A stretch of 64,000 nucleotides of DNA from Planctomycetota bacterium (GTDB lineage: Bacteria > Planctomycetota > UBA1135 > UBA2386). A model generated the notes under the pieces. The model saw only the letters and a list, made by a program, of their open reading frames with translations. It ran no database searches and was not told the origin of the DNA. The position numbers and the translations under genes were made by a program. Positions 11,200 through 54,090 of this stretch are shown here, piece after piece (position 1 is the stretch's first letter; the number at the start of each line of letters is the position of its first letter). Location: assembly GCA_014192625.1 (NCBI GenBank), contig BJHM01000001.1, forward strand, positions 187,725 to 251,724, in the 5' to 3' direction.

Positions 11200-12722
11200 T
11201 GCCGTCGCGAGCTCCATCGGTTGCCGGAAAAGCTCGCCTTCCCCTCGGTCAAAAGTTTCTGCAAGCCAGCAAGCAGGGAGCGCGCGGCGAACGGATGCAT
11301 TTCCGGTTTCGTGTCTGAGTAGACGATCGGCACGAGTTCGTCGAGTGTGCCAGATCGCTGGGCCAGTGTTTCGAGCAGCGTGGCCTCACGCTTGCTGCGG
11401 TGTCGCAGATATTGCTGCAAATACCGCCGGCCATCGCGTACCGCAGGGCCATGCGCTGGGTAGAGCGTCGTCATAGGCTCCAAGGCGAGGAGATTGAGGC
11501 TCTGTAGATACGTGGCGAGGTGACCTTCAGGCGGGTCGATGATGATGGTCGAGATAGTCGAGATCATGTCGCCGACGATCGCGGCACCGTAGCGGGACTC
11601 GTGAAAACACAAGTGGCCGCGGTCGTGACCTGGAGTGTGGATCGCGCGCAGATGCCAGCCTGTAGAGCCGTCAGGCGCGCGACCCAGAGGGATTGAGTCG
11701 TCGTGGTGGATGGGCGCGCCTAAACGGCAGCCGGGTGGCAGTCGTTCGAGTGTCAGGGGGTGGCCGCGCACCGATAGATTGCGCGCCTCGCAGAGCGCCG
11801 CGATGCCGCCAACGTGGTCTTGATGATGGTGGGTTGCGATTACTCCGCAGAGGCGCGCGCCAGTGCGGCACAACTCATCGAGCAGCAATAACAACCGCTG
11901 TTGCTCTTCGTGCGCGGGACTGCCAGGATCGATCACCCACAGTTCATCGCGGCCAGTGATGTAGCAGTTGGTGGTGGTGGCAGGCGGCAGCGTTTTAGTG
12001 AGTAGTGGCGCCAAGACAATGCCTGGCGAAAAGCGCACGAGGTGTAGGTGCCCCCTGCGGTAGCCGTCGGTAGTTTGAGTGACACTCAGCGTGAATGCCG
12101 TGAGGTCGCCATTTGCTGCTGCAAGGTGTTCAAGCAGGATGATCACTGGTGGGACCAGCAAGAGTTCGCCTCTCTGCCAAGCCAAAAGTGCGTCGTCTGG
12201 TCGCCAGAACTTGCCGTTGATGAGCTCGCCGGGCCACACGCTCGGTTCGCGGCCGCCGTTGGTATCGCGGCAAGTCTCAAGTGCCACATGCAAGAACTCG
12301 GTGTCGTAGCGAACCGGCGCGAATGCCGGTGTCTCGATGCGGCATATGAGCGGCAGCGGTGCTGGATCTGGGAGGCCAGCGATCAGCTGCAGCCACGGAG
12401 CAGTGGTGTCGACGATGCCGGTCAGGTCGTGTTGCAGCATCGCCGTGCGCACGTTGTGAAGGTGCTCCTGCGAGTTGCGATCTGCTGGCAGCTGGTGTTG
12501 CAGTAGGCCGGTCTCCTCAAAAAGTTCGCGCAATGCACAGCGCTGCATAGCCGCTGATTCGCTGGTCACCGTACCGCCGTCGGCAGGAGCGAGGGTGCCG
12601 CCAGGCAACGCAAGGTAGCCGCCGAAGAAGCGCAACAACGGCGAACGCTCGACCAGGAACACTTCGATCGAAAGCCCCTGCCCGCGGGTTAGCAACAGCG
12701 CTGCGGCATTGCGCCTGCTCAT
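11196..12722 (-). CDS. NUDIX hydrolase / MBL-fold metallo-hydrolase fusion protein
   Basis: ORF 11196..13067 trimmed to ATG 12722, which forms an ATGA overlap with the upstream stop. NUDIX box GGTVTSE-x9-RELFEETGL near the N-terminus. MBL motif ATHHHQDHVGG plus downstream HTPGH. Confidence 0.8.
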   Translation of the reverse strand: MSRRNAAALLLTRGQGLSIEVFLVERSPLLRFFGGYLALPGGTLAPADGGTVTSESAAMQRCALRELFEETGLLQHQLPADRNSQEHLHNVRTAMLQHDLTGIVDTTAPWLQLIAGLPDPAPLPLICRIETPAFAPVRYDTEFLHVALETCRDTNGGREPSVWPGELINGKFWRPDDALLAWQRGELLLVPPVIILLEHLAAANGDLTAFTLSVTQTTDGYRRGHLHLVRFSPGIVLAPLLTKTLPPATTTNCYITGRDELWVIDPGSPAHEEQQRLLLLLDELCRTGARLCGVIATHHHQDHVGGIAALCEARNLSVRGHPLTLERLPPGCRLGAPIHHDDSIPLGRAPDGSTGWHLRAIHTPGHDRGHLCFHESRYGAAIVGDMISTISTIIIDPPEGHLATYLQSLNLLALEPMTTLYPAHGPAVRDGRRYLQQYLRHRSKREATLLETLAQRSGTLDELVPIVYSDTKPEMHPFAARSLLAGLQKLLTEGKASFSGNRWSSRRQ

Positions 12723-14848
12723 TCGAACTGCGCCGCGTTGCGCAAGGTGAGTAGCGCCATCGCCGTGCCGTAGCTGCGCCCAAGCTCGTGGCTGTCGATG
12801 AAGCTGCCGTCGATCTCGGGGATGTCTTGCAGCAGTGCGATGAACTTTTGCCAATGCGGCGCACGCTCTGCTTCTGGTAGCAGCTTCACTACTTCGCTGG
12901 CGTGATAGACGGAGTGGAAGAAAAAGAAGCCGCCGAGTTCGCCATCGCTGTGGAAGTCGTTGCGACGCACGCCCTCCAGATTTTTCAGAAACGCAAAAAA
13001 GTTGGTCATAGCGAAGCGCAGTTTGTCCAGGTCGCTGCGGCCGAGTTGCAGCAGCGCGCCTTCGCAAACAGGCATCCGGCCGACCGCGTCCTTGTGTGAC
13101 GTAGGATTCCCAGTGCCGGCGGCGCCACCGTAGGCGAAGGAGCCGGTCTTGAAGCGCGCGCTGATTAGCGCGCTGGCGCCCTTATCGGTGAGTTCGCTCG
13201 GCACGCTCGCACCACCTGCCTTCGCGGCGAGGATCTCCTGCAGGATTGCACCAGTGGCAAATGCGTTTTCGTATTCATGCGCCCAGAAGCCACTCGCCAT
13301 CTGCCGCGCCCGCGCTTGCTCGACCAGATCATTCATTCGCGCGATCCACACTTGCTTGTCATCGACACTCGCATCGCGACTACGACGCGCGAGATACATC
13401 AAGCGATACGCATCTGAGTAACAGTCTTCGTTGGCCCCCCGATTGAGCCGCTTTGGATCAAACGCGAATGCATAGCCGCGCTGCAGCGCAAGGTCGATTT
13501 GCACACCAAGGTCAGGGAACACGGAGCGGTATTCCCAAAGTGCCGTCATCGCGATCGCGGTGATAGCGACCCATACATTTGGCGTGATCTCACTGCTCGG
13601 CCAGTAGGCGTAGCGTGCGTCCGTGAAGCCGCCGTCGTCATGTTGTTGCGCCAGTAGAAACTCGAGCGCCTGCCGTGCCATTGCCTTTGGCTCGAGTGCG
13701 GCACCGTTCCAGGTGGTGTCCTTGGGCATTCCCTGATAAGCGGACTCGGGCAAGTATCGAACGCCTTCGAAGCCAGCGAATGCCGCACCGATCGGCCGAT
13801 CGTCTGGCCCAAGGGTCACATTGGCGTGCGCCCGTTTGCCAAAAAGGTCATTTGCATGACGCAAAGCCACCAGCTCGAAGCGACGCATCGCCCCAACTTC
13901 ATCGCCGAGGTGCAATGCGTTCAGCGCAAACCAGTAGCCTGCCTCGGCGGTCCGAGTGCCCGCGTTACGCCACGCGTATTCAAACTCCGGTTGCGCTTTC
14001 TGCGGTCGACCGACCATCGTCAGCACAAGGCCGCGTTCGCAGGCGATATCGGCCTTGGTCGTGCTTTTGGAACTCACTTCGCTGTCGAGTTGGGAAGCTG
14101 CTCGATCGAGGCTCAGCAAAGCGGCATCTGGTTGCCGCAGGAGCCGCTGTAGCGCCGCTAGCAGCAACCAATCCGAGCTCGATTTGCGCGGTTGCTCGAT
14201 GAGCAGGGTGGCAGCCGGGCGCCAGAGTCCCATGCGGCGCATCGCAATTGGTGAGACTGCCTTGCGTGGGACTTGCTGCTGCTCCAGAAGGCGCACCATC
14301 AAGCTGGCAAACCAATGTGCATGAAAGGTGCGGAAGCGTTCGACGAAGTGGATGACGTTGCCATCGCCATCGAGGAACACGATTGCGGGTTCAACAAACG
14401 CGAGCGGTCGCAGCCCGAACCGTTGGCTCAGGGTTTCGTCAAGCATGCAACGCACTGGCACGAAGCACTCCGTTGCCATGGCAGACACGTCGCCGTCGGA
14501 AAGGACAACTTGCTGGAGGTAGGTGTCTAGTATTGGCGACCGATACATCTGCCGCCCCCCCAAGTGCGCCTCTTCGATGCGGTGCACATACCAGAGGACC
14601 AGTTTGTTTTCGGCCTTGGCTTTTGCGCAGGCTTGATCGATCAGCTGCGTTCGGTCGACAGCACCCCGCTGTTCTGCTGCGTGGTCGTAGAACTCGGAGC
14701 CATCACTTTGCCAGGGGATCGATTCAAGAAGGTGCAGGGTGCTTGCTGGGTGAGGGGGCGCAAGCTGTCCGTAGACATCAGTCGAGATTGCCAGCAAAGA
14801 TACGGCTGGCAAAAATAGGCGCAGCAAGGCGTGATGGGTGACAGTCAT
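12719..14848 (-). CDS. secreted thioredoxin-like domain + (alpha/alpha)-toroid (prenyltransferase/squalene-cyclase-repeat-like) protein
   Basis: 709 aa with a signal peptide (LFLPAVSLLAISTDVYGQ). The N-terminal Trx-fold-like segment (AKAENKLVLWYVH..., no CxxC) is followed by repeated aromatic/Gly-rich helical-hairpin motifs (DDGGFTD, SGFWAHEY, GSFAYGG, IDGSFID, SYGTAMALLTL). The architecture resembles YyaL/SSP411 (inference). Confidence 0.55.
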   Translation of the reverse strand: MTVTHHALLRLFLPAVSLLAISTDVYGQLAPPHPASTLHLLESIPWQSDGSEFYDHAAEQRGAVDRTQLIDQACAKAKAENKLVLWYVHRIEEAHLGGRQMYRSPILDTYLQQVVLSDGDVSAMATECFVPVRCMLDETLSQRFGLRPLAFVEPAIVFLDGDGNVIHFVERFRTFHAHWFASLMVRLLEQQQVPRKAVSPIAMRRMGLWRPAATLLIEQPRKSSSDWLLLAALQRLLRQPDAALLSLDRAASQLDSEVSSKSTTKADIACERGLVLTMVGRPQKAQPEFEYAWRNAGTRTAEAGYWFALNALHLGDEVGAMRRFELVALRHANDLFGKRAHANVTLGPDDRPIGAAFAGFEGVRYLPESAYQGMPKDTTWNGAALEPKAMARQALEFLLAQQHDDGGFTDARYAYWPSSEITPNVWVAITAIAMTALWEYRSVFPDLGVQIDLALQRGYAFAFDPKRLNRGANEDCYSDAYRLMYLARRSRDASVDDKQVWIARMNDLVEQARARQMASGFWAHEYENAFATGAILQEILAAKAGGASVPSELTDKGASALISARFKTGSFAYGGAAGTGNPTSHKDAVGRMPVCEGALLQLGRSDLDKLRFAMTNFFAFLKNLEGVRRNDFHSDGELGGFFFFHSVYHASEVVKLLPEAERAPHWQKFIALLQDIPEIDGSFIDSHELGRSYGTAMALLTLRNAAQFE

Positions 14849-15147
14849 GCGCGTGGGAGCTTAACATCGGTTGACGAGCGCCGAAGTTACTGTGGTAGCG
14901 CAGGGCTTTTGGTTGGCGATTAAGGTTGCAGAATAAATACGGTGCTCTGCAACAGCGAGCGCGTAGCTTACGGCCTCTGCAACATCGGAATGTGGCGCCG
15001 CAGTCGACTCTTTGTTGGGGGGGCAATTCGCGTCGAGCACGAAGTGCCTCAGCAGGAGAAAAGTTTTCCCAGACAGAGACCTTTTTCCCTGCTTTAACCG
15101 CGGAAGATTGTCCCTATGGGATGCTTGAAGTTCCATAAGATATTCAC

Positions 15148-15213
15148 CAGCACGGCCTTCACAGCACGGCCTTCACAGCACGGCCTCCACAGCACGGCCT
15201 TCACAGCACGGCC
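15148..15213. repeat. 14-bp tandem repeat CAGCACGGCCTTCA, ~4.7 copies
   Basis: Read directly. One unit carries a T->C variant. The array ends 13 nt upstream of the candidate -35 element at 15226. Confidence 0.95.
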
Positions 15214-15225
15214 GAATAAATAAGT

Positions 15226-15251
15226 TGGAACCTATTTTTAAACGCTCCGTC
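15226..15251 (+). promoter_or_regulatory. candidate ECF-sigma-type promoter, TGGAACC-N14-CCGTC
   Basis: The sequence tTGGAACCtatttttaaacgctCCGTCaa ends 31 nt before ATG 15283. It has GGAAC/CGTC with a 16-nt spacer and an AT-rich spacer. The same 7-mer and 5-mer recur at 38482..38508. Confidence 0.55.
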
Positions 15252-15282
15252 AATCTGGGACCCAGTACACTCTGAACAACCC

Positions 15283-17013
15283 ATGAATAATCTAAAAATA
15301 CTCAGCGCGTTGCTCGCGACAGCTACTGCCCTTTCGGCGCAGTGCATTGCTCCTTCTTCTCTCAATACAAACCCCCCTGACTTCTCTGCTTCGCACTATG
15401 TTGGCTCGCCGAACCCGCCAGTGGTTCCAGATCCAGGTTTCAGCAGCCTTTGGGACATGACGGTCAACGGTTCGTTGACTATCAGCTCGATTGACAGCTA
15501 TCTATACAACGATGGCGTAAACCCATACCAGGTCGGCAACACGGGGCCCTTCGACTTTTGGATTTGCCCGACTACTCACACCGGCAATGAGCTGATCCCG
15601 GCCAACTGGACGCTAGTCGGCAGTGGCACGTTCTCGGTTGCAGATAGCAGTAGCCACTCGCCAGCCGTTTTCAATGTCCCAGTGGTCCTTACTCCGGGCA
15701 CCTATGGCTGCGCGCTAAACCTAAAAGTAACAACGGTCTCGGTCAATGCGCAGCCGCTAATGCGCTGCAACCCACTAGTCACTTTGGCAAGTGTAGTGCC
15801 AAACACTCCAATGTCGGTGAGTGATCAGTTCATGTCGATCAACAACGAAGTGACGCAGCGAATCGCTTTCGTATCGGGGATTGGCGCGAACCATACGATC
15901 AACATCCAAATCAACTACGCTCCAAATGCTTCGTCAGCATTCTCATCGACGTATGGCGCTGGCTGCTACTTCCGCCCCCAGTCGTTCTATGAGACGTTCC
16001 AATTTGCGGCGCCGATTGACCTGTCTAACTCGGGCATCACGCTAATCAACAACGGCCCTAACTACACTGCGGTCCCATCTTCGCCATTCGGGGCATACGT
16101 CCCTACTACTCTCCCACTGGTCGGTGTTGCTGGCGGCACCATTATGGGTGACGACGATATTACACTTCCGATCACTCTGCCCTTCACGTTTAGTGCTCCG
16201 GGTGGCGTGTCCACGAGCCAAATCCAAATTGGTTCTAATGGCTTTGTGTATCTTTCAGCAACTGCTGGCAGCGCTTTTGGATACTACGACGACATCAACG
16301 GCTTTTTGACCGGAGTACCGCGCATCGCGCTAGGTTTCGGTGACTGGCTGCCGAGCGGAAATGTTGGTGGTAACGGTAACATTTACTACGAGGTTGATCC
16401 GAGCAACGCATTTGTCACGATCACCTATAACGATGTTGCTGAGTGGGTTCCAACACCTCCCACCATCGCTCGTCTAAATGGTCAGATCGTTCTCTACGCC
16501 AGTGGCCAAATCGACCTTCACTGGGGTAGTTGCTCGCAGCAGATTCCAGGTGGCGCTCCAGTGCTTGTGGGTTACAGTAACGGCGACGGCAATGACCCGG
16601 GCTCACGTAATATCAGCGCGGTGCCATTCGTCACCGGCAACGGCGACCTGCCGCCATCTTTGAAAACCGACACCCGTCCAATACTCGGCGGGACTTGGAA
16701 TTTGGTCACCAATCAAGTTGACCCAGCCACGTTCCTCGTCCTGACGATCTTGAGCTTTACCCCGCCACCGCCGGCACCATTCAACAGCCTCGCGCCCTTT
16801 GGCATGCCAGGCTGCACCCAAGAGGTCGGTAGCATTGATGCGACCTTCGTGAGTCTTGCCTTTGCTGGGACGACGTCGGTTGCGATCAGTGCCCCAGCCC
16901 TACCGGGCTTTATCGGCATCCAAGTGCGCGCTCAGGCAGCGCCGTTCACTTCTGGCCTTAATCAGGCAGGCATCGTTACTTCGAATGGCGTTTGCTGTAA
17001 GCTCGGCCTCTGA
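15283..17013 (+). CDS. secreted protein of unknown function; C-terminal ~350 aa module paralogous to the C-terminus of 38626..41919
   Basis: 576 aa with signal peptide MNNLKILSALLATATALSAQC. GC is visibly lower (~54% by hand count) than in neighbouring genes. Colinear similarity to the protease C-terminus (YGAGCYF..SFYETF, SNGFVYL, GSRNIS, GMPGC, SNGV). Confidence 0.8.
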   Translation: MNNLKILSALLATATALSAQCIAPSSLNTNPPDFSASHYVGSPNPPVVPDPGFSSLWDMTVNGSLTISSIDSYLYNDGVNPYQVGNTGPFDFWICPTTHTGNELIPANWTLVGSGTFSVADSSSHSPAVFNVPVVLTPGTYGCALNLKVTTVSVNAQPLMRCNPLVTLASVVPNTPMSVSDQFMSINNEVTQRIAFVSGIGANHTINIQINYAPNASSAFSSTYGAGCYFRPQSFYETFQFAAPIDLSNSGITLINNGPNYTAVPSSPFGAYVPTTLPLVGVAGGTIMGDDDITLPITLPFTFSAPGGVSTSQIQIGSNGFVYLSATAGSAFGYYDDINGFLTGVPRIALGFGDWLPSGNVGGNGNIYYEVDPSNAFVTITYNDVAEWVPTPPTIARLNGQIVLYASGQIDLHWGSCSQQIPGGAPVLVGYSNGDGNDPGSRNISAVPFVTGNGDLPPSLKTDTRPILGGTWNLVTNQVDPATFLVLTILSFTPPPPAPFNSLAPFGMPGCTQEVGSIDATFVSLAFAGTTSVAISAPALPGFIGIQVRAQAAPFTSGLNQAGIVTSNGVCCKLGL

Positions 17014-35166: not shown

Positions 35167-35366
35167 GTAAGCGGGGTTCCTTTGGGGCGCTGCGTGCGGG
35201 CATTTGCGGTGTCCTAAGGGGTTCTCCTTGCGGGTTCCCTGCCGCATAACCCCAACGGTTCGGGGGCTGCTCGCCGGTGGCGGCAAAGCCATCGCCAGCA
35301 GCTTGCCATAGTCTGCAACGCTGTTCGATCCGGTCGCCGTCATGGCTATGCTGCGCGCAACGCCGC

Positions 35367-37532
35367 ATGAGCCAATCATTCCTCGACGATCTGAACGATG
35401 CGCAGCGTGCCGCGGTGCTGCATGGCGAAGGCCCGCTCATGGTGCTGGCTGGTGCTGGCTCTGGCAAGACGCGGGTGGTGACTCGCCGCATTGCACGATT
35501 GCTCGATCAGGGCGTTCGCTCAAGTCAGATCCTAGCGTTGACGTTCACCAACAAAGCCGCTGGCGAGATGGCTAATCGCGTGCAGGCGCTGTTTGGTGGT
35601 TACGTGCGGGTTGCGACCTTCCATTCGGCTTGCGCGCGCTTTTTGCGGAGCGACGCGACATTGCTCGGCTACCCAGCCAACTTCTCGATCTACGACACCT
35701 ACGACCGTGACTCGCTGATCAAATCGTTGCTCGAGGATGTCGGCCTGACTTCAACCAAGGTCAAGCCAGCGGCGGTCGGCAGCATGGTCTCGCGGCTCAA
35801 GAACTGCGCGACCAAGCCCGGCGATTCTGTGCTCGGTGACAACGACATCGCGCGAGCCGTCGAGCGGATTTGGCAGCGTTACGAAGAGCGAATGCAGCAG
35901 CTGGGCGCGATGGATTTTGATGATCTGCTGCTGTGCTTCCTGCGCCTTTTGCGGGAACACCCGCAAAAGGCCGAGAGCTACCGCGAACGGTTCCCATGGC
36001 TACTCGTAGACGAGTTCCAGGACACCAATCGCGTGCAATACGACATCCTGCGCGCGCTCAGCAAGCAAGACGGCAACATCTGCGTTGTCGGTGACCCGGA
36101 TCAGTCGATCTATGGCTTTCGTGGCGCCGAAGTGCGCAACATCCTCGATTTTGAGGATCACTATCCCGGCACGACGGTGGTGCGCCTCGAACAGAACTAC
36201 CGTAGCTCGGCCAATATTCTTTCCGCCGCCGAGTCGGTCATCGAGAACAACAAACTAAGAAAGCAGAAGCGGCTGCGGACCGACAACGCGCCCGGCGACA
36301 AGTTGCTGCTGTTCCACGCCGGTGGGCCTAGCGAAGAGGCGGATGCGATTGCGGATCGCGTGCTCGGGCTCTCCGGCGAGGGCGCTGCGCTTGATCAGAT
36401 CGCGATTTTCTATCGGGCGCACTACCTCTCGCGCTCCATCGAGCAGTCCCTCAAAGACAAGGGCGTGCCGTATGAGATTGTCGGCGGCCTGACGTTCTTC
36501 GAGCGCCGTGAGATCAAGGACCTGCTCGCCTACCTGCGCGTGTTGGTCAATCCGCTCGATGATGTCAGCATGCAGCGCATCATCAATGTGCCGCCACGGG
36601 GACTTGGCAAGACTTCGCTCGACAAGTTGAAGGACGCGGCTGCTGCCGAAGGCATGTCGTTGCGCGAAGGCGTTTCATTGTCGGAGTTGCACGTTGGCCT
36701 CTCGGCGAAATCGCGCAAGGCGCTCCTGCAGCTGGGCGAGGCGCTCGATAAGGCGCAGGCAGCGTCTTCGCGCGGCGCGCACCAGGCCCTCAAGGTGATC
36801 CTCGAAGGCACTGGCTACATCCAGCATGCGACCGGCATTGGTGACCCGGATGACATTGCGCGGGAAGAGAACATCCAAGAGTTGGTGTCTGACACGATCT
36901 CGTTCGACGAAAAGAATGGCGAAGGGCTTGCCGGTTATCTCCAGCACGTCTCATTGCTGACCTCGGCAGATCGCAACGGCGGCAGTGGTCCAGCAGTGCA
37001 GATGATGAGCGTGCACGCGGCGAAGGGCCTTGAGTTTGATCACGTCTTCATTGCTGGACTCGAAGACTCGGTGTTTCCAAGTATGCGCGCAGCGGCGGCC
37101 AAGGACGGGATCGAAGAAGAGCGCCGCTTGATGTATGTCGCGTTGACTCGTGCGCGCCGCACGTTGTTCTTGAGTCACGCGCGCGAACGCATGGTCAATG
37201 GCTCCATGGAACGGATGCAGCCGTCGCGGTTCTTGAAGGAGATCCCCAAGGGGCTGCTGGCGGATCACGAAGCTGTATGGCATCGATTTTCCAGAGAAGA
37301 GGATCGCGCCGACTGGAGTCCCGACCCTGACCCTGACCCGGACGCGGTGATTCAGGTCAGCGTCGGCGCGCGGGTGCGGCACGACATGTACGGCGCGGGC
37401 ACCATTCGCCGCGTCAGTGGGATGGGGATCATGTCGCGTGCGGTGGTGCGCTTTGACGATGGCATCGATCGTGAACTCATCCTCGAGTATGCGGGATTGC
37501 AGCAGCTTGGTGACGGAGACTTTGACCTGTGA
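35367..37532 (+). CDS. pcrA: ATP-dependent DNA helicase, UvrD/PcrA family
   Basis: Trimmed to ATG 35367. SF1 motifs AGAGSGKT, TFTNKAA, LVDEFQDTN, VGDPDQSIYGFRGA, LEQNYRS, VHAAKGLEFDHVF and YVALTRAR. C-terminal Tudor-like tail. Confidence 0.9.
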   Translation: MSQSFLDDLNDAQRAAVLHGEGPLMVLAGAGSGKTRVVTRRIARLLDQGVRSSQILALTFTNKAAGEMANRVQALFGGYVRVATFHSACARFLRSDATLLGYPANFSIYDTYDRDSLIKSLLEDVGLTSTKVKPAAVGSMVSRLKNCATKPGDSVLGDNDIARAVERIWQRYEERMQQLGAMDFDDLLLCFLRLLREHPQKAESYRERFPWLLVDEFQDTNRVQYDILRALSKQDGNICVVGDPDQSIYGFRGAEVRNILDFEDHYPGTTVVRLEQNYRSSANILSAAESVIENNKLRKQKRLRTDNAPGDKLLLFHAGGPSEEADAIADRVLGLSGEGAALDQIAIFYRAHYLSRSIEQSLKDKGVPYEIVGGLTFFERREIKDLLAYLRVLVNPLDDVSMQRIINVPPRGLGKTSLDKLKDAAAAEGMSLREGVSLSELHVGLSAKSRKALLQLGEALDKAQAASSRGAHQALKVILEGTGYIQHATGIGDPDDIAREENIQELVSDTISFDEKNGEGLAGYLQHVSLLTSADRNGGSGPAVQMMSVHAAKGLEFDHVFIAGLEDSVFPSMRAAAAKDGIEEERRLMYVALTRARRTLFLSHARERMVNGSMERMQPSRFLKEIPKGLLADHEAVWHRFSREEDRADWSPDPDPDPDAVIQVSVGARVRHDMYGAGTIRRVSGMGIMSRAVVRFDDGIDRELILEYAGLQQLGDGDFDL

Positions 37533-38434
37533 CCGAGCGTGCAGCATTGCAAGCAGAGTTCTCTGCGTTGCTATTGCGCGCGGTTTCGCTGGCCGACCGG
37601 GCACTGCTCGATGACTGGCGGGCAATCCTCGATGCGCTGCCAGCAGCGGCAGTCCCGGAGCTCGCTGCCGATGATCTGTGGCAAGGGCTGTTGGGCAACT
37701 GCGCGGCGATGCTGCAACTCCGGACACGAATCCAAAAGTTTGCCCCTGCCGACGCGCCCGTCTTGATCACCGGCGAGAGTGGCACTGGCAAGGAGAAGGT
37801 CGCGCGCGCATTGCATGATCTCAGTCGCCGTAAAGCACAGCCGATGGTTGCGGAGAACTGCGCTGCGATCCCTGACACGCTGCTGGAGTCGGTGCTCTTT
37901 GGTCATGTGAAGGGCGCGTTCACCGGTGCCGTGAAAGACCACCCCGGGCACTTTTTGTCGGCTGATCATGGCACTTTGTTCCTCGACGAAATCGGCGACA
38001 TGAAGTTGCCGATGCAGGTGAAGCTTTTGCGAGCGCTGCAAGAAAGCGAAGTGCGGCCGGTGGGTGGCAGTAAGGTCAGGAAGGTGGATGTGCGCGTGAT
38101 CGCAGCGACCAACTCGGACCTGGAAAACGCAGTCAAGCAGGGCCGCTTCCGAGAAGACCTATATTTTCGCTTGAACGTGTTGCGAATCGGTCTGCCGCCG
38201 CTGCGTGACCGTGGGAATGACATCGTGTTGCTGGCCCGCAGCTTTCTGGCCGAAGCCAGTGCGAGGAGTGGCCGTAGGCTCACGCTATCGCCGGAAGCCG
38301 AGGCCGTGATCGTGGCGCTGCGCTGGCCCGGCAATGTCCGTCAGTTGCAGAATGAAATGCAGCGACTTGCGGCATTGTGCACTGGCAGCGAGGCGCGAGT
38401 GCGCGATATCTCCAGCGAAGCGCTCGGGCGATAG
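37529..38434 (+). CDS. sigma-54 interaction (AAA+) domain protein lacking both receiver and DNA-binding domains
   Basis: 301 aa. GTG start overlaps the pcrA stop (GTGA). GESGTGKE, GAFTGA, GTLFLDEIG, VRVIAATN and WPGNVRQL are all present. There are only ~57 aa before the AAA+ core, and the protein ends ~25 aa after it without an HTH. Confidence 0.85.
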   Translation: MTERAALQAEFSALLLRAVSLADRALLDDWRAILDALPAAAVPELAADDLWQGLLGNCAAMLQLRTRIQKFAPADAPVLITGESGTGKEKVARALHDLSRRKAQPMVAENCAAIPDTLLESVLFGHVKGAFTGAVKDHPGHFLSADHGTLFLDEIGDMKLPMQVKLLRALQESEVRPVGGSKVRKVDVRVIAATNSDLENAVKQGRFREDLYFRLNVLRIGLPPLRDRGNDIVLLARSFLAEASARSGRRLTLSPEAEAVIVALRWPGNVRQLQNEMQRLAALCTGSEARVRDISSEALGR

Positions 38435-38481: not shown

Positions 38482-38508
38482 TGGAACCCTACCTGGCTAT
38501 GGACCGTC
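38482..38508 (+). promoter_or_regulatory. candidate ECF-sigma-type promoter, TGGAACC-N15-CCGTC
   Basis: The sequence gTGGAACCctacctggctatggaCCGTCtc ends 117 nt before ATG 38626. It has the same 7-mer and 5-mer as 15226..15251. Confidence 0.5.
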
Positions 38509-38625: not shown

Positions 38626-41600
38626 ATGTCCAGTTACAGTCGCCATGCTGGTGGAGTTGGCGGTTTTTTTTTGGCAGTAAGCATCGCCCTCGGGCAGAAA
38701 CCTAGCCAATCGATTGGTATCCAATCGGCGGAGGATTTTGCGCGGCAGCAGATTGCGCTCGGCATTCCAGATCCTCGATTTGACGCAAGGAGTCAGGCGG
38801 AGAATCCCGCCTGGCAGCGATTCCTGGCAACCGCCGGCGGACAGTGGATCAGTCATTGGTCGCCCGCCACGAATACGCCAACTGCCGTCTTCGGTACTGG
38901 CCTTTCGATCGCAGATTGGCGCGGCAACTCGCAAGCTGAGGCAAGTAGGCACGCACGGCAACTCTTGGTCGACCAGCAGGAGTTGCTCGGCTTGGGCACC
39001 AGTGAGTTCCGTGAAGCGATCGCCGCGCGCATCGGCGGCATGTGGTCGTTCGTTTATGATCAGTATTACCGCGGCCTCCCAGTGCTAGCTGGTCGCGCCG
39101 ATGTGCGCGTGCACATGACGGGCAAGGTGTCGATGTTTGGTAGCGCGGCACTGCCGATTGCCGCCGACTTCGTGATCGTGCCCTCGATTGATGAGCTCAA
39201 CGCAGCACGCATCAGCTGGCAGGCCCTTGGCCAGCAGCCGCGCGCAAAGCAGCCCAACGACAAGCGGCCGCTGCGGCTGGTGATCTATGGCGACCTAAAA
39301 GCGCCTGCCTTGACTAAGGCTCAGCTTGCTTATGAGGTGCCGGTGTCGGCGGTCGATTTCGAAGGTCGCGGCCCCATTGGGCGCTACTTGATCGATGCGC
39401 ACAGCGGCGAAGTGCTGACCTACATCAATGACAAGCACGAGTGTGGCATTCCGGGCTGCACCTACCCGCCCAATGGCTTCACGAATGGCGGCACGGATGA
39501 AAAGCCCCCGGCCCTGATTGGCGCAGCACTACCACCAACCACCGGCATCGTGAGAGGCTTTACGCGCACCGGCAACGTCGCATCAGACGCGCTCGTCAAC
39601 GTGCCACTCGCGGGCGTTGAATTGTCGATCCCCGGCGTCGGTATCGTGGTGACAGATGCGAACGGCAGCTTCGCGGCGACGATCGCGAGCCCCGTCGTTG
39701 TGGTCGCCACGCTGGATGGCATACACAATCAATTGATCCTTGGCGCAACTGCCCCGACGGTAACGTTCACGCTCACTCCGGGTGTGCCAGCAGTCGTGCA
39801 GTTTCTGACTAGCCTTGCATCACCTGAGGCTGCCGCGCACACGTCGACTTACTGGTGGGTCAATAAAGTCAACGAGTTCAGCCGCTCGATCCTGGGCAAC
39901 TCAGCGCAGCTCAATATTGCGGACGCCGTCTTGCCGTCGGTCAACCTCGCGTCGACCTGCAACGCCTACTACACCAATAACACGATCAACTTTTATGCGA
40001 CCGGCGGCGGCTGTGCGAACACTGCGTTTTCGACTGTCGTCGCCCACGAATGGGGACACGGTCTTGACGAGCGCTACGGTGGCATTTCGCAAGTGAATGG
40101 GCTTAGCGAAGCCTGGGGCGACATCCTCGCGATGTATTTGACCGACACGCCGATCGTCGGCGATGGCTTCTTCACTACGGGCGGCTTCATTCGCACTGGT
40201 AATAATACGCGGCAGTATCCAAGCGGCACCGGCGTGCACCAGCAGGGCGAGTCCTTCATGGGCTTTGCCTGGAATCTGCGCGATGGACTTGCCGTCTCGC
40301 TTGGCAGTCGCGCGCTAGCAATAGCGCTTTCCAACACTCTTGTAGTTGGCTCGATCGCGGCCAATGCCCCGGATCAATATGGGGCAGTCACGCAGATATT
40401 CCTCGCCGATGACAACGACGGCAACCTACTGAACGGCACGCCTCACTCGAGCCAGTTGATCTTTGCCTGCAACCTGCACTCACTGCCAAACCCAGTCAAC
40501 CCGCCGACCTCTCCCGCCAACGACGAGTGCCTCAACGCGATCTCAATCACGAGTGGCGTGAATGGCCCCTACACGAATTCGTTTTCGACCACTTCGTCGG
40601 CATGGCCATGTGCATTAGGTAGCGCCGACGTCTGGTTCAGATACGTGCCGGTCAGCTCAGGAACGGTCACTGTCGACATCTGCGGCGTGGCGACTTTTGA
40701 TACTGCGCTTGAGATCCTTTTCGGCTCGTGCGGCGCGCTCACTTCGCTGTCCTGCAACGACGACTCCTGCACTCTTCAGTCCAGCGTGACCGCGCCGATT
40801 ACCGCTGGCACTGTCTACTTCGTTCGGGTCGGCGGCTACAGCGGCGCGATGGGCCCGTTCAGCATCAATCTGACTGGTCCTCCGGGCGGCGGCGGAACTG
40901 TGCCAGCTGCCACGACCAACTACGGCATTGGTTGCTACATCGATTCGCGCTCGTTTTACGAGAGCTTCCCAACGGCGGGAGCGTTTGACTTGAGCAACTT
41001 GAACATGCGACTGGCCAGCTCCGGCGGTCGCTACATCGCATCGGCGGCTGGCAACTACGTTGCGCCAACAGGAGCGGCGACAGTGCTTGCGCTCACGGAC
41101 GACTCGGAGGTCAGCGTCGCACTCCTTGGCGCCTTCCCGTATCCGGGCGGCACTACGTCATCGTTGGTGGTCTGCTCCAACGGTTTCGTTTCGGTTGCCA
41201 CCGGCAACGGTTCCGGTTTTACACCGAATGCGTTCCAGTGGCTCAGTAGCGCGCAGATGCGCTGGGGCGATTGGCACGACTATAACCCATCCTCGGGCGT
41301 GGGCCGCGTCAAGTTTGAGCAGGTCGGCTCGGTGGCTTTCGTGACATGGGATGGTGTTGTCGACTTTGGCGCTACGACGGTCAACACGTGGCAACTGCAG
41401 TTCAATCTGAGCAACGGGAGCGTCACCTACGCATGGAGCACGATGAGTAACGGTGGCAACCCGCACCTCGTCGGCTTTGCCGCCGGTGGGGCATCTAATG
41501 ACCTCGGCAGTCGCGATATCTCGACTTCGCTTCTGGGTGGATTTTCGACGGGCGCTGCCAACTCGGTGGGGCTTCTGCAAGCGAGCTCGTTGCCGCAAAT

Positions 41601-41919
41601 CGGCACGACACTCACGATCACGACCAGTGGCTACCCAAGTGGTGCGGCGCTCGGCGTTGGCTTCCTCAGCTTTACCCGTCACGACCCTGGTCTGGATTTG
41701 ACGTCACTCGGCATGCCGAACTGCTTTCAGTATGTCGGGCTCGATATCTCCTACGTCATGATTGCCAGCTTAGGTCAGTCGACGTTTACGCTGACGATCC
41801 CTAACAATCCGGCGCTGGCTGGGTTGGCCTTCCAGAGTCAGGCATTCGCTTTGGTTCCGGGCATAAACAGTCAGGGCGCGATCTCGTCAAACGGCGTGCG
41901 CCTCGTGATCGGCACTTAG
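38626..41919 (+). CDS. secreted multidomain M4-like (thermolysin-type) zinc metalloprotease
   Basis: ORF 38377.. trimmed to ATG 38626 (GAGGG 6 nt upstream), giving a signal-like N-terminus. FTP/PepSY-like propeptide, HEWGH...GLSEAWGDI (HExxH plus a downstream Glu ligand pattern), Cys-framed domain NDECLNA...CNDDSC...VRVGGY, then the 332-aa module shared with 15283..17013. Confidence 0.8.
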   Translation: MSSYSRHAGGVGGFFLAVSIALGQKPSQSIGIQSAEDFARQQIALGIPDPRFDARSQAENPAWQRFLATAGGQWISHWSPATNTPTAVFGTGLSIADWRGNSQAEASRHARQLLVDQQELLGLGTSEFREAIAARIGGMWSFVYDQYYRGLPVLAGRADVRVHMTGKVSMFGSAALPIAADFVIVPSIDELNAARISWQALGQQPRAKQPNDKRPLRLVIYGDLKAPALTKAQLAYEVPVSAVDFEGRGPIGRYLIDAHSGEVLTYINDKHECGIPGCTYPPNGFTNGGTDEKPPALIGAALPPTTGIVRGFTRTGNVASDALVNVPLAGVELSIPGVGIVVTDANGSFAATIASPVVVVATLDGIHNQLILGATAPTVTFTLTPGVPAVVQFLTSLASPEAAAHTSTYWWVNKVNEFSRSILGNSAQLNIADAVLPSVNLASTCNAYYTNNTINFYATGGGCANTAFSTVVAHEWGHGLDERYGGISQVNGLSEAWGDILAMYLTDTPIVGDGFFTTGGFIRTGNNTRQYPSGTGVHQQGESFMGFAWNLRDGLAVSLGSRALAIALSNTLVVGSIAANAPDQYGAVTQIFLADDNDGNLLNGTPHSSQLIFACNLHSLPNPVNPPTSPANDECLNAISITSGVNGPYTNSFSTTSSAWPCALGSADVWFRYVPVSSGTVTVDICGVATFDTALEILFGSCGALTSLSCNDDSCTLQSSVTAPITAGTVYFVRVGGYSGAMGPFSINLTGPPGGGGTVPAATTNYGIGCYIDSRSFYESFPTAGAFDLSNLNMRLASSGGRYIASAAGNYVAPTGAATVLALTDDSEVSVALLGAFPYPGGTTSSLVVCSNGFVSVATGNGSGFTPNAFQWLSSAQMRWGDWHDYNPSSGVGRVKFEQVGSVAFVTWDGVVDFGATTVNTWQLQFNLSNGSVTYAWSTMSNGGNPHLVGFAAGGASNDLGSRDISTSLLGGFSTGAANSVGLLQASSLPQIGTTLTITTSGYPSGAALGVGFLSFTRHDPGLDLTSLGMPNCFQYVGLDISYVMIASLGQSTFTLTIPNNPALAGLAFQSQAFALVPGINSQGAISSNGVRLVIGT

Positions 41920-52181: not shown

Positions 52182-53081
52182 ATGCACGCTGTCGCCCAGA
52201 GTATCGAAGAGCGCGAAGCCTTGAAGGCCCGCTTACTCAGTCTGTGGGAGCGAACTGGTGATGCGTCTTTACAGCGTCTTGCCAACGGCGAGGCGCCACG
52301 CGACGGCGCTGCGTTTGCGACCCAGCAAGAGCGAACCGACTGGGTCAACACTTGCTTGATGGAGAACTACAAAGTCACGGGCGATGCGCAGGTGTTCGCG
52401 CTGCTGTTTGAGTTGAACCATCCGGTGTTTGCGATTGCGGTCCAAGGGCACATGCGCCGCGCCTTCTGCCACGTGGATGCCAACGATGTGTTGCAGGATG
52501 TGTTCCTAAACATCTATCGCTACCCGCACCGATTCCTGTCGGACCGTGCCGATGCATTTCGCAATTGGGGCCACCGGATCGTGCGCAACACGATGCTGAA
52601 GGCGATGCGTGGTGCAGGGCGGCAAGCGCGCATCCTGAGCATGGATGATGAGATTCAATATGCCGACGCGCGCGCCCATTCGCCGGAGTTCGTCGCCATC
52701 GAGGGCGAAGCTTTAGTGTTCGTCAATCACGCATTCGTGCTCTACCTGAGCCTCTACTTGTTGCACTTTAGCCGCCTGTCGGAGAAGGAGCAGCGCGCGT
52801 TGACGATGGTGGAGATCGATGCTGCGTCCTACCGCGATGCTGCCGCCGCGCTTGGGGTTCGTGTTGAGAACCTCAAGATGGTCATCTTCCGCGGCCGCCG
52901 CAAGATCTTCCGTGGGATGGGTCGCACTCTCGCTGCGATGGGCAAGCTGGGGGAGACGGGCGGGCCCGATGCGACGGGCAGGCCCAAAGCCGTAAAGCCG
53001 GCCCTGCAAGTACGACAACGTGTGGCACGTGCGTGCCCTGTCCGAACCGCTGACGGGGTAACCAAACAACATCTGCGCTAG
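52182..53081 (+). CDS. ECF-family RNA polymerase sigma factor with N- and C-terminal extensions
   Basis: ATG 52182 is preferred (GGAGG 8 nt upstream). Region 2 is DVLQDVFLNIYRYPHRF and region 4 is LSEKEQRALTMVEIDAASYRDAAAALGVRVENLKMVIFRGRRKI. About 70 aa precede region 2 and about 55 aa follow region 4. Confidence 0.85.
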   Translation: MHAVAQSIEEREALKARLLSLWERTGDASLQRLANGEAPRDGAAFATQQERTDWVNTCLMENYKVTGDAQVFALLFELNHPVFAIAVQGHMRRAFCHVDANDVLQDVFLNIYRYPHRFLSDRADAFRNWGHRIVRNTMLKAMRGAGRQARILSMDDEIQYADARAHSPEFVAIEGEALVFVNHAFVLYLSLYLLHFSRLSEKEQRALTMVEIDAASYRDAAAALGVRVENLKMVIFRGRRKIFRGMGRTLAAMGKLGETGGPDATGRPKAVKPALQVRQRVARACPVRTADGVTKQHLR

Positions 53082-53096
53082 AGCCAAATAACAAAA

Positions 53097-54089
53097 GTGA
53101 GTGATACCGACGATAACCCGTGCCTGCAGATCCAAGTGGACCTGTCAGCCATGCTCGACGGCGAGCTAGACGCTGCGTCCATTCGGCGGGTGCTTGTGCA
53201 CAGCGATATTTGCCTGCACTGCAGTAGTTTCCTCGGCGGGATCCGTCAGCAGGCGCGGTTGCATCAGGCCGTTCACGAGGTGGGTGCGTCCAGTCCGACG
53301 AGCCGCCTGCGTCGGCAGTTGTCCGAAAACCGCAAGCAGCTCTCGCGCATCCTCTATGAGCTGGGACGCGGCTTTGTCCTGATGGGTTTGTCGTCAGATT
53401 TTTACAAGGAAGTCGGCAAGGAGCCGGTGCCGGTGCCAGATATGGCGTTGCGCGGTCGCAACTTCATCGCCGAGATCACGCGCTGGGCGCACGGCAACGG
53501 CCAGAACGTCACGGAGTGGGTGGTGGCGCAGGAGCTGTTCGATCATGGCATGCGCAGCGCCACCGAAAACCTCGCCAAGGGGCAGCGGCTTTTGGCGGAA
53601 TGTCTGGCCCTCGATGAGGCCAATCACGAGGCGCGCATCTATCTCGGGCTAGTGCACCATGTGCGCGGCCAGCGCAGCCTCGCGCGGCAGCAGTTCACAG
53701 CGGTGATCGCGTCAACCAATGACCAAGTGATGCGCGGCTTTGCGCTCCTCAATCTCGGCAACGTGCATCTCGACGAAGGCGATTGCGAAGGTGCGATCCA
53801 GTTGCTGCTACAGCTCGTTCAGTCTGGTGTCGTGGCGCAGCAGCCGCGATTCGGCATGGCGTATTTCAATCTTGCCCTGGCCTTTGGCTTGCTCGGTCAA
53901 TTTGACGACAGCCATCTCTGGTTCGGTCGACTGCATGACGAGTTGCCCCATAAGCGCAGCATCGTCGCTAGGGAGTTGACGAGGAGGCGGCAGTTCGTGC
54001 ATGTATTACGCAATCACCCCGAGATCGAAGGCCGATTTGCGGTGAGTTTCCCAGTTTGGTTTCCACTGACCGCCAAGGAGGCGGGCTAG
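53097..54089 (+). CDS. cytoplasmic anti-sigma factor (ZAS-type H-x3-C-x2-C) fused to TPR repeats
   Basis: N-terminal CLQIQVDLSAMLDGELD...VHSDICLHC motif, no TM helix, and a TPR-like C-terminal half (ARIYLGLVHHVRGQ..., FALLNLGNVHLDEGD..., MAYFNLALAFGLLGQ...). It starts 15 nt after the sigma gene. Confidence 0.75.
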   Translation: MSDTDDNPCLQIQVDLSAMLDGELDAASIRRVLVHSDICLHCSSFLGGIRQQARLHQAVHEVGASSPTSRLRRQLSENRKQLSRILYELGRGFVLMGLSSDFYKEVGKEPVPVPDMALRGRNFIAEITRWAHGNGQNVTEWVVAQELFDHGMRSATENLAKGQRLLAECLALDEANHEARIYLGLVHHVRGQRSLARQQFTAVIASTNDQVMRGFALLNLGNVHLDEGDCEGAIQLLLQLVQSGVVAQQPRFGMAYFNLALAFGLLGQFDDSHLWFGRLHDELPHKRSIVARELTRRRQFVHVLRNHPEIEGRFAVSFPVWFPLTAKEAG

Positions 54090-54090
54090 G

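What the first reader, a model, noticed from the sequence alone, without database searches (positions are those of the whole stretch)
15226..15251. Same ECF-type promoter motif (TGGAACC-N14/15-CCGTC) in front of two paralogous secreted-protein genes 23 kb apart
The sequence shows tTGGAACCtatttttaaacgctCCGTCaa at 15226-15251, ending 31 nt before ATG 15283. It also shows gTGGAACCctacctggctatggaCCGTCtc at 38482-38508, ending 117 nt before ATG 38626. The 7-mer and the 5-mer are identical and the spacers differ by 1 nt. A GGAAC -35 element and a CGT(C) -10 element about 16-17 nt apart is the classic architecture of ECF sigma promoters (established knowledge). The two downstream genes share a long C-terminal module. 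In the other intergenic regions I read, including upstream of the ECF sigma operon at 52182, I found no further TGGAACC...CCGTC pair. Simple 4^-12 arithmetic for 12 fixed positions, 2 spacers and a ~200-nt search window gives about 2e-5 by chance. This looks like a small dedicated regulon for an undescribed family of exported proteins. The ECF/anti-sigma module at 52182..54089 is an obvious but unproven candidate regulator.
Basis: partly seen in the sequence, partly recalled or inferred. Interest (0 to 1): 0.75.

Follow-up and report, generated by a model that had tools for sequence, protein, structure and literature searches.

The report
ECF-type promoters before two paralogous secreted-protein genes
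Two related genes for exported proteins in an uncultured planctomycete both carry the classic promoter signature of an alternative (ECF) sigma factor; relatives keep it in front of one gene but not the other, so this is probably a small, ordinary stress-type regulon whose regulator is not the sigma factor encoded nearby.

Summary
TGGAACC-N14-CCGTC lies at 15226-15251, 31 nt before ATG 15283. TGGAACC-N15-CCGTC lies at 38482-38508, 117 nt before ATG 38626. These are the only GGAAC-N14-19-CGTC matches in the 64 kb, on either strand. The two genes share a ~360-aa C-terminal module (32% identity, E 5e-32).

The real support is threefold: the match to the a-priori ECF consensus (AAC at -35, CGT at -10), the paralogy, and conservation across genomes. 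GGAAC-N16-18-CGTC recurs 31-112 nt upstream of gene-1 orthologues at 37-92% identity in other Planctomycetota, with unrelated spacers, and upstream of a third module-bearing protein (a trypsin-like protease). Seven non-redundant family upstream regions carry it, against about 0.1 expected.

Seven gene-2 orthologues (55-61% identity) lack it, including at the homologous position in a syntenic relative. Site 2 is therefore lineage-specific or, less likely, chance.

The proposed regulator (ECF 52182-53081) is not supported. Its conserved own promoter is GTTACTT-N17-TATGGCA. In three genomes a different ECF/anti-sigma pair sits beside the gene-1 orthologue.

Verdict: a new member of a known kind, of modest interest.

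The parts
15226..15232 (+). Site 1, predicted -35 element TGGAACC
   Evidence: GGAAC(C) is kept in orthologous promoters: L006 (92% aa identity), L007/L047 (63-64%), and L001, L003, L005 (37-38%).
15247..15251 (+). Site 1, predicted -10 element CCGTC. It lies 16 nt after GGAAC and 31 nt before ATG 15283.
   Evidence: (C)CGTC is conserved in the same orthologues while the spacer sequence is unrelated.
15283..17013 (+). Gene 1: 576-aa all-beta exported protein. It has an N-terminal signal-peptide-like sequence ending in a conserved AQ-C. It has no Pfam or NCBIfam hit; its C-terminal module (aa ~219-575) is NIDO-like in part.
   Evidence: Homologues are only Planctomycetota or metagenomic. 5 of 15 orthologues hit Pfam NIDO, best E 1e-8. 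The AlphaFold model is all-beta with pLDDT 75.6.
38482..38488 (+). Site 2, predicted -35 element TGGAACC
   Evidence: It is not conserved at the homologous position of the syntenic relative L036 or in six other orthologous loci.
38504..38508 (+). Site 2, predicted -10 element CCGTC. It lies 17 nt after GGAAC and 117 nt before ATG 38626.
   Evidence: The leader that would follow (38515-38640) has no significant structure (z = -1.2) and no Rfam match.
38626..41919 (+). Gene 2: 1097-aa exported protein. It has an HEWGH thermolysin/fungalysin-like metalloprotease region (weak M36/M4/FTP hits), a galactose-binding-like domain, and the same C-terminal module (aa ~761-1096).
   Evidence: It has more than 100 orthologues at 45-61% identity in Planctomycetota MAGs, plus one at 98%.
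15143..15213 (+). 14-bp tandem repeat TTCACAGCACGGCC x5, directly upstream of the site-1 -35 element. Its role is unknown and it may not be part of the promoter.
   Evidence: The 92%-identical relative L006 has 4 copies; L047 has none.
52182..54089 (+). ECF-like sigma (N-terminally extended) plus zf-HC2/TPR anti-sigma. It is listed here because it was tested and not supported.
   Evidence: The conserved own promoter GTTACTT-N17-TATGGCA lies at about 52094-52123 in the window, and there is no GGAAC-CGTC upstream.

Best explanation
Both sites are promoters of the ECF (group 4 sigma-70) type. An RNA polymerase holoenzyme carrying an ECF sigma factor would bind GGAAC(C) through sigma region 4 and melt the DNA at (C)CGTC through region 2. 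Transcription would start a few bases downstream, near 15257-15260 and 38514-38517.

The transcripts encode two exported proteins that share a ~350-aa C-terminal NIDO-like module, so the two genes would be switched on together when that sigma factor is released from its anti-sigma factor.

The promoter in front of gene 1 is ancestral to that gene family. The one in front of gene 2 was acquired, or retained, only in this lineage. The responsible sigma factor is encoded outside this window and is most likely not the ECF at 52182-53081. A TIGR02989-type ECF like the one next to gene-1 orthologues in other genomes is the best lead.

Shown here: the sequence, its position, its conservation and the paralogy. 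Inferred: sigma dependence, start sites, co-regulation and the identity of the regulator.
For: - Exact sites and their uniqueness in the window.
- Match to the ECF hallmark (AAC at -35, CGT at -10; PMC8103513) and to ECF spacing (GGAACA-N17-GTT for Mtb sigma-H; PMC6411747).
- No sigma-70-like consensus near either start and no known RNA element.
- Phylogenetic footprint for gene 1. L006 keeps both boxes. L007/L047 (63-64% aa identity) has cacGGAACC-N15-CCGTC 35 nt before the ATG, with a completely different spacer. L001, L003 and L005 have GGAAC-N18-CGTC 92-112 nt upstream. L004 and L011 have C/TGAAC-N18-CGTC.
- L024 encodes a trypsin-like protease with the same module and has GGAACC-N16-ACGTC 38 nt before its ATG.
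- Enrichment. In one search, 11 of the 20 GGAAC-N16-18-CGTC hits in 257 kb of window plus loci (both strands) lie upstream of family genes; the other 9 are inside ORFs. Seven non-redundant family upstream regions carry the motif against about 0.1 expected.
- ECF genes lie next to family members. A TIGR02989-type ECF with a putative anti-sigma lies downstream of the gene-1 orthologue in L001, L003 and L005. An ECF fusion protein lies directly upstream of the gene-2 orthologue in L039, and an ECF lies 2.5 kb upstream in L041.
Against: - No transcription data exist.
- Site 2 is not conserved. Seven gene-2 orthologues lack the motif. In the syntenic relative L036 the homologous bases read GAGGCTCC and GCCCGC.
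- Five gene-1-type loci (L002, L009, L015, L018, L019) also lack it; L002, L015 and L019 show TTGAC-type -35 boxes instead.
- The GGAAC-to-CGTC spacer ranges from 16 to 18 nt across genomes, whereas single ECFs are usually strict about spacing (PMC6411747).
- A weight matrix trained on sites from other genomes ranked site 2 first in the window with wide flanks, but outside the top 15 with narrow flanks. That test is not robust.
- The TIGR02989-type ECF genes do not carry the motif in their own proximal upstream region.
- No sigma factor with this specificity was identified in the window.
Confidence: 0.6

Rival explanations
1. Only site 1 is a real ECF-type promoter. The match in front of gene 2 is a chance occurrence, and gene 2 is transcribed from another promoter.
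For: The motif is absent from all seven gene-2 orthologous upstream regions and from the homologous position in the syntenic locus L036. L038, L040, L041 and L042 instead share CCTTGAC-N16-C(G/T)TCTCC about 65 nt before the ATG. Shared 7+5 bipartite words are common between upstream regions, at 6% of pairs. The weight-matrix ranking of site 2 is not robust.
Against: With the core fixed a priori, a hit in one given 250-nt upstream region is expected about 0.003-0.006 times. Site 2 also matches the three flanking positions of site 1 (T, C, C), and two of them recur in orthologous sites. It is the only other hit in 128 kb of strand, and it falls in front of the only other clear module-bearing gene. 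No alternative sigma-70-like promoter is seen there.
Confidence: 0.2
2. The ECF/anti-sigma pair at 52182-54089 is the regulator of both promoters.
For: It is the only ECF-like sigma detectable in the window and has a zf-HC2/TPR anti-sigma partner. Not all ECFs are autoregulated (PMC7826278), so the lack of the motif upstream of its own gene does not exclude it.
Against: There is no GGAAC-CGTC upstream of it in the window or in four orthologous loci. Instead a different promoter, GTTACTT-N17-TATGGCA(A/T)GAT, is conserved there in four of the five sequences and is degenerate in L046. The sigma is highly conserved (524 homologues, most at 55-74% identity) within a fixed synteny of QueG, a 250-aa protein, the ECF, the anti-sigma, a 150-aa protein and GDPD, unrelated to the target family. 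Gene-1 orthologues that carry the motif are adjacent to a different ECF of TIGR02989 type. That ECF has no significant BLASTP similarity to the window ECF.
Confidence: 0.1
3. The conserved bipartite motif is the binding site of a conventional transcription factor, not a sigma-factor recognition sequence.
For: No experimental data separate the two readings. Site 1 is preceded by a 14-bp tandem repeat array that could bind a regulator. The 16-18-nt range of spacers is looser than is typical for one ECF (PMC6411747).
Against: The two half-sites are neither direct nor inverted repeats of each other. They match the two ECF boxes in sequence, order, orientation and spacing. They always lie on the coding strand, 31-160 nt before the start codon. 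No other promoter-like sequence is present.
Confidence: 0.07
4. The sites are sigma-54 promoters (TGGAAC resembles the -24 TGGCAC box) driven by the sigma-54-type AAA+ activator encoded just upstream of site 2 (37529-38434).
For: A sigma-54 interaction-domain protein ends 47 nt before site 2 (Sigma54_activat, E 7.5e-70). TGGAAC differs from TGGCAC by one base.
Against: The -12 element is missing. Five bases after TGGAAC the sequence reads TTTA (site 1) and CTGG (site 2) instead of TTGC, and the orthologous sites show nothing like it either. The conserved second box, CGTC, lies 16-18 nt downstream, not 5. Site 1 has no such activator nearby. The consensus used is established knowledge of sigma-54 promoters (GG at -24, GC at -12, fixed spacing).
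Confidence: 0.02

Closest known systems
ECF (group 4 sigma-70 family) dependent promoters in general, for example Mtb sigma-H (GGAACA-N17-GTT) and E. coli sigma-E (-35 GGAACTT)
   Same: A -35 box containing GGAAC and a -10 box containing CGT, about 16-17 nt apart, upstream of genes for exported or envelope proteins (PMC8103513, PMC6411747). The boxes are conserved while the spacers vary freely.
   Different: No cognate sigma has been identified. No copy of the motif lies in front of any ECF gene seen here, whereas classical ECFs are positively autoregulated. The spacer varies from 16 to 18 nt between genomes.
EcfG-type general-stress promoters of Alphaproteobacteria (AAC at -35, CGTT at -10)
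   Same: A nearly identical consensus: GGAAC at -35 and a CGT-containing -10 (PMC8103513).
   Different: The phylum is different (Planctomycetota). The -10 is CGTC, not CGTT. No NepR/PhyR-type partner genes were seen in the window; I did not search for them specifically. The resemblance concerns the promoter only, not the system.
Planctomycetal ECF groups, including the N-terminally extended ECFs (ECF87-89 of Wiegand et al., as cited in PMC8103513) and NCBIfam TIGR02989 (the Rhodopirellula/Verrucomicrobium ECF subfamily)
   Same: The window ECF has an N-terminal extension of about 95 aa before region 2. The ECF next to gene-1 orthologues in L005 passes the TIGR02989 cut-off (130.4 bits against 124.55).
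   Different: I could find no published target promoter for these groups in the library. Assignment to a numbered ECF group could not be tested with the tools available.

Membership tests
ECF sigma-dependent promoter | -35 element containing AAC (typically GGAAC) | tested here: met
   TGGAACC at 15226-15232 and 38482-38488. The hallmark is taken from PMC8103513.
ECF sigma-dependent promoter | -10 element containing CGT | tested here: met
   CCGTC at 15247-15251 and 38504-38508.
ECF sigma-dependent promoter | Fixed spacer of about 16-17 nt between the boxes | tested here: met
   16 and 17 nt between GGAAC and CGTC in the window. Across orthologues the spacer is 16-18 nt, which is somewhat looser than expected for a single sigma (PMC6411747).
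ECF sigma-dependent promoter | Conserved in orthologous upstream regions while the spacer sequence drifts | tested here: inconclusive
   Met for gene 1: L006, L007/L047, L001, L003 and L005, and relaxed in L004 and L011. Not met for gene 2: L036-L042.
ECF sigma-dependent promoter | Transcription start 5-10 nt downstream of the -10 box | not testable with these tools
   There are no transcriptome data for this uncultured organism.
ECF sigma-dependent promoter | Transcription depends on a specific ECF holoenzyme | not testable with these tools
   This needs genetics or in vitro transcription.
Regulon of the window ECF (52182-53081) | The same motif upstream of the sigma's own operon (positive autoregulation) | tested here: not met
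   No GGAAC-CGTC in 51986-52185 or in four orthologous loci. The conserved promoter there is GTTACTT-N17-TATGGCA in four of the five sequences, and degenerate in L046.
Regulon of the window ECF (52182-53081) | Genomic linkage or co-occurrence of the sigma with its target genes | tested here: not met
   The ECF lies 14-37 kb from the targets, in a fixed and unrelated synteny block. Gene-1 orthologues neighbour a different ECF.
Sigma-54 promoter | GG at -24 and GC at -12 with fixed spacing (TGGCAC-N5-TTGC) | tested here: not met
   The GG is present, but the -12 TTGC is absent at the required distance in both sites and in the orthologous sites.
NIDO (Pfam PF06119) domain proteins | Significant match to the Pfam NIDO model | tested here: inconclusive
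   Gene 1 itself has no hit. 5 of 15 orthologues match, best E 1e-8. One orthologue (P0009) has a precomputed PF06119 hit.

The most novel reading that the evidence does not exclude
Planctomycetota of this lineage run a dedicated ECF regulon for a large, undescribed family of exported proteins. The family is defined by an invariably C-terminal ~350-aa NIDO-like module attached to different heads: a beta-sandwich domain, a thermolysin-like metalloprotease or a trypsin-like protease. The cognate TIGR02989-type sigma/anti-sigma pair sits beside a target gene in some genomes. The regulon gains and loses members by promoter turnover, and gene 2 was recruited in this lineage only.
Probability: 0.25. 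Interest if true: 0.5.

Novelty: new member of a known kind. Interest (0 to 1): 0.35.

Why it matters
Planctomycetota encode many ECF sigma factors, and I found no experimentally mapped target promoter for them in the literature available here.

A motif conserved across genomes and tied to a defined family of secreted proteins gives a concrete, testable entry point. One can fuse the two promoters to a reporter and screen the organism's ECFs, or the TIGR02989-type ECF from related MAGs, in a heterologous host.

It also flags a widespread uncharacterised C-terminal module. That module is found in 727 representative clusters and always sits at the C-terminus. It is attached to different proteases and may matter for how these bacteria degrade polymers.

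The mechanism itself, an ECF promoter in front of exported-protein genes, is textbook.

Tried and rejected
1. Weight-matrix ranking of the window with sites from other genomes. Site 2 ranked first with 10+9-nt blocks. It fell outside the top 15 with 7+7-nt blocks, and shuffled windows reached similar maxima. Seven training sites are too few, so this was not used as evidence.
2. MAFFT alignments of the promoter regions. There is no extended similarity, and MAFFT mis-aligns the boxes. This shows only that the shared signal is limited to the two boxes.
3. Autoregulation test for the window ECF: negative.
4. Autoregulation test for the TIGR02989-type ECFs. They have a terminator-like hairpin followed by a conserved TGTCCC-N16-GACAAT, and no GGAAC-CGTC.
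5. Search for further ECFs or further module genes in the window by phmmer. Nothing was found beyond the known ones. The weak hit of ORF 61940-64000 (E 3e-4) was judged not meaningful.
6. More distant module-bearing loci (L021-L035): no further motif copies.
7. Structure prediction with a Foldseek search of the PDB, and a phmmer search of PDB sequences. The protein is multi-domain and all-beta, with no informative match.
8. Rfam and RNA folding of the gene-2 leader: nothing.
9. Literature. The supplement of the ECF reclassification paper is not held. There were no papers on TIGR02989 or on bacterial NIDO modules.
10. The first search for related loci attempt, with the 21-sequence alignment, failed for lack of a conserved stretch.

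Full report
**1. The observation**

The two sequences are present exactly as described.
- Site 1 is tTGGAACC-tatttttaaacgct-CCGTCaa at 15226-15251. It ends 31 nt before ATG 15283.
- Site 2 is gTGGAACC-ctacctggctatgga-CCGTCtc at 38482-38508. It ends 117 nt before ATG 38626.
- Both lie on the coding strand of the downstream gene.
- The 12-base pattern with a 13-17-nt gap occurs twice in the window against 0.02 expected from shuffles.
- The relaxed core GGAAC-N14-19-CGTC also occurs only at these two places on either strand, against 3.4 expected. There is no excess of motifs. What stands out is where the two copies sit.
- The downstream proteins (576 and 1097 aa) share a C-terminal module of about 360 residues, at 32% identity and E 5e-32.
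- A phmmer search of all window ORFs finds no other clear carrier of that module.

**2. How much is chance?**

As a control I took 200 nt upstream of 45 putative genes in the window. I asked how many of the 990 pairs share any 7-mer plus any 5-mer at a spacing of 12-18 nt, +/-1. Sixty pairs do, or 6%. A shared bipartite word alone is therefore weak evidence.

The weight comes from three other facts.
- The shared words are the ECF consensus, fixed in advance by the literature: AAC at -35 and CGT at -10 (PMC8103513). The spacing is that of a well-studied ECF, GGAACA-N17-GTT for M. tuberculosis sigma-H (PMC6411747).
- With the core GGAAC-N16-18-CGTC fixed a priori, a hit in one given 200-250-nt upstream region is expected only about 0.003-0.006 times. 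The one other hit in the window falls in front of the one other clear paralogue.
- The motif recurs in other genomes (section 4).

**3. The genes and the organism**

- Gene 1 (15283-17013) has a signal-peptide-like N-terminus ending in a conserved Ala-Gln-Cys. It has no Pfam or NCBIfam match.
- Its 22 homologues come from metagenomes and Planctomycetota MAGs.
- Five of 15 orthologues hit the Pfam NIDO model, best E 1e-8.
- An AlphaFold model built on the orthologue alignment is all-beta (pLDDT 75.6) and has no informative match in the PDB.
- Gene 2 (38626-41919) has an HEWGH motif, weak fungalysin/thermolysin (M36, M4, FTP) matches and a galactose-binding-like domain, followed by the module.
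- Gene 2 has more than 100 orthologues at 45-61% identity, and one at 98% in an NCBI Planctomycetes MAG.
- Searching the module alone against 1.8 billion representative proteins finds 727 clusters at E <= 1e-3. In the 150 best, which are the ones listed, the module sits at the very C-terminus of proteins of about 150-1240 aa.
- 'Undescribed family of exported proteins' is therefore fair.

**4. Comparative test of site 1**

I fetched loci encoding gene-1 relatives from genome and metagenome collections. I then scanned the upstream regions. Counting from GGAAC to CGTC, the sites are:

| Locus | Sequence | Spacer (nt) | Distance to ATG (nt) |
|---|---|---|---|
| window site 1 | agttGGAAC-N16-CGTCaatc | 16 | 31 |
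| L006 (92% aa identity) | ttttGGAAC-N16-CGTCattc | 16 | 31 |
| L007/L047 (63-64%) | ccacGGAAC-N17-CGTCtgtc | 17 | 35 |
| L001 | tcacGGAAC-N18-CGTCgaag | 18 | 112 |
| L003 | gcacGGAAC-N18-CGTCcaac | 18 | 92 |
| L005 (= L010, L016) | ccggGGAAC-N18-CGTCcaag | 18 | 104 |
| L004 | ctgcCGAAC-N18-CGTCgaac | 18 | 160 |
| L011 | cagtGAAC-N18-CGTCcaag | 18 | 160 |
| L024 | caacGGAAC-N17-CGTCcgag | 17 | 38 |

- In L007/L047 the spacer (ccgtgggagaacaagac) has nothing in common with that of the window (ctatttttaaacgctc). The boxes, and the stretch from the -10 box to the ATG, are kept. This is the pattern expected of a promoter.
- L024 encodes a different protein, a Trypsin_2 domain followed by the module. 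The motif therefore follows the module family rather than one orthologous group.
- In one search, 20 strict hits were found in 257 kb of window plus loci, both strands. Eleven lie 31-117 nt upstream of family genes, and the other nine lie inside long ORFs.
- In a non-redundant set of 22 family upstream regions (5.5 kb), seven carry the strict motif against about 0.1 expected.
- Not all relatives have it. L002, L009, L015, L018 and L019 do not; L002, L015 and L019 show TTGAC-type -35 boxes instead.

**5. Comparative test of site 2**

- Seven loci with gene-2 orthologues at 55-61% identity were fetched. None has GGAAC-CGTC upstream.
- L036 is syntenic with the window: UvrD helicase, then the sigma-54-type AAA+ protein, then the protease. 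It comes from the same metagenome sample as L047, which does keep the gene-1 motif.
- Aligned at the homologous position, L036 reads GAGGCTCC and GCCCGC, with a 6-nt insertion.
- L038, L040, L041 and L042 share another conserved element, CCTTGAC-N16-C(G/T)TCTCC, about 65 nt before the ATG.
- Site 2 is thus not under long-term conservation. Either gene 2 joined the regulon in this lineage or the match is fortuitous. No relatives between 61% and 98% identity are available to decide.
- I rate a real site about three times as likely as chance, for the reasons given in section 2.

**6. A test that failed**

A weight matrix trained only on sites from other genomes ranked site 2 first among all positions of the window when wide flanks were used. 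With narrower blocks it fell outside the top 15, and shuffled windows reached similar maximum scores. Seven training sites are too few. I do not count this test either way.

**7. Alternatives for the nature of the motif**

- Sigma-54. TGGAAC resembles the -24 box, and a Sigma54_activat protein (37529-38434, with no DNA-binding domain) ends just before site 2. But the -12 TTGC is absent at the required distance in both sites and in the orthologous sites. The conserved second box lies 16-18 nt away instead. Rejected.
- Sigma-70. No consensus-like site lies near either start.
- RNA element. No Rfam match, and the gene-2 leader is not unusually structured (z = -1.2).
- Transcription-factor site. 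This cannot be excluded. However, the half-sites are not repeats of each other, and their order, orientation and spacing are those of a promoter.

**8. Which sigma factor?**

It has an N-terminal extension of about 95 aa and scores just under the NCBIfam ECF superfamily cut-off.
- It has 524 homologues, most at 55-74% identity.
- In all four fetched loci it lies in the same block: QueG, a ~250-aa protein, the ECF, the anti-sigma, a ~150-aa protein and GDPD.
- Its upstream region has no GGAAC-CGTC. It has a different conserved promoter: GTTACTT, 17 nt, then TATGGCA(A/T)GAT. This is clear in four of the five sequences and degenerate in L046.
- If that promoter is autoregulatory, this sigma has a different specificity. 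If it is a housekeeping promoter, the test is neutral. Nothing points positively to this sigma.

By contrast, in L001, L003 and L005 the gene-1 orthologue with its GGAAC-N18-CGTC promoter is followed on the same strand by another ECF and a 333-aa putative membrane anti-sigma.
- The L005 ECF is 176 aa and reaches the TIGR02989 cut-off (130.4 bits against 124.55).
- The window encodes no orthologue of that ECF.
- Those ECF genes are preceded by a terminator-like hairpin and by their own conserved TGTCCC-N16-GACAAT, not by the motif. The adjacency is therefore a lead, not proof.

ECF genes also neighbour gene-2 orthologues. An 853-aa ECF fusion protein lies directly upstream in L039, and an ECF lies 2.5 kb upstream in L041.

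**9. Verdict**

- The promoter interpretation is well supported for site 1 and reasonably supported for site 2.
- The regulon idea is plausible.
- The proposed regulator is not supported.
- This is a new member of a known kind: an ECF-type promoter in front of exported-protein genes, in a little-studied phylum.
- Its value is practical. It gives a motif conserved across genomes, two or three defined target types and a candidate ECF subfamily, all of which can be tested with reporter assays.

Noticed in passing
window 15143-15213: A 14-bp tandem repeat, TTCACAGCACGGCC, in 5 copies directly upstream of the site-1 -35 box. It occurs nowhere else in the window. The 92%-identical relative L006 has 4 copies, and L047 has none. 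It could be a regulator-binding array or simply a variable repeat.
   Followed up: partly
window 37529-38434: A 301-aa sigma-54 interaction-domain AAA+ protein with no receiver or DNA-binding domain. It overlaps the end of a UvrD-type helicase gene (35277-37532). The same gene pair precedes the gene-2 orthologue in L036.
   Followed up: partly
window 51986-54540; L043-L046: An N-terminally extended ECF-like sigma with a zf-HC2/TPR anti-sigma. They lie in a strictly conserved block: QueG, a 250-aa protein, the ECF, the anti-sigma, a 150-aa protein and GDPD. The ECF has a conserved upstream promoter, GTTACTT-N17-TATGGCA(A/T)GAT, at about 52094-52123 in the window.
   Followed up: yes
L001 5421-7054; L003 5359-6965; L005 4728-6238: A TIGR02989-type ECF sigma plus a ~333-aa putative membrane anti-sigma, immediately downstream of gene-1 orthologues that carry GGAAC-N18-CGTC. 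The window has no orthologue of this ECF.
   Followed up: partly
L024 1572-4029: A 798-aa protein with a Trypsin_2 domain followed by the same C-terminal module. It is preceded by GGAACC-N16-ACGTC, 38 nt before its ATG. The module is thus fused to serine as well as metallo-proteases.
   Followed up: partly
L038 ~2918-2950; L040 ~2399-2430; L041 ~2421-2452; L042 ~2430-2462: Gene-2 orthologues share a different conserved upstream element, CCTTGAC-N16-C(G/T)TCTCC, about 65 nt before the ATG and after a terminator-like hairpin. They are preceded by a conserved 612-667-aa gene that looks like a lipoprotein gene by its N-terminal sequence.
   Followed up: no
L039 244-2802; window 62126-64000: L039 encodes an 853-aa fusion of an ECF sigma domain, a membrane segment and CarboxypepD_reg-like repeats, directly upstream of a gene-2 orthologue. 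The window ORF that runs off the end (start 62126) appears, by inspection of its sequence only, to contain similar repeats behind a membrane anchor. It is preceded by TTGAC-N16-CGTG.
   Followed up: no
window 15937-17007 and 40906-41913: The shared ~350-aa module matches 727 representative clusters at E <= 1e-3. In the 150 best, which are the ones listed, it sits at the extreme C-terminus of proteins of about 150-1240 aa. This suggests an anchoring, sorting or substrate-binding role.
   Followed up: partly
window 42400-45420: A 1006-aa protein with an N-terminal FHA domain and a C-terminal CAP (cysteine-rich secretory protein) domain, downstream of gene 2.
   Followed up: no
L001, L003, L004, L011 (about 14 nt upstream of the -35 box): The promoters with the 18-nt spacer share an A-tract (AAAA, often AAAATG) about 14 nt upstream of GGAAC. 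Window site 2 has GGAAAATCG directly before its -35 box. This may be an UP-element-like feature.
   Followed up: no
window 12719-14848 (- strand): A 709-aa protein with a signal-peptide-like N-terminus and no Pfam or NCBIfam hit is transcribed divergently from gene 1. The same arrangement is kept in L047 (a 713-aa gene).
   Followed up: no
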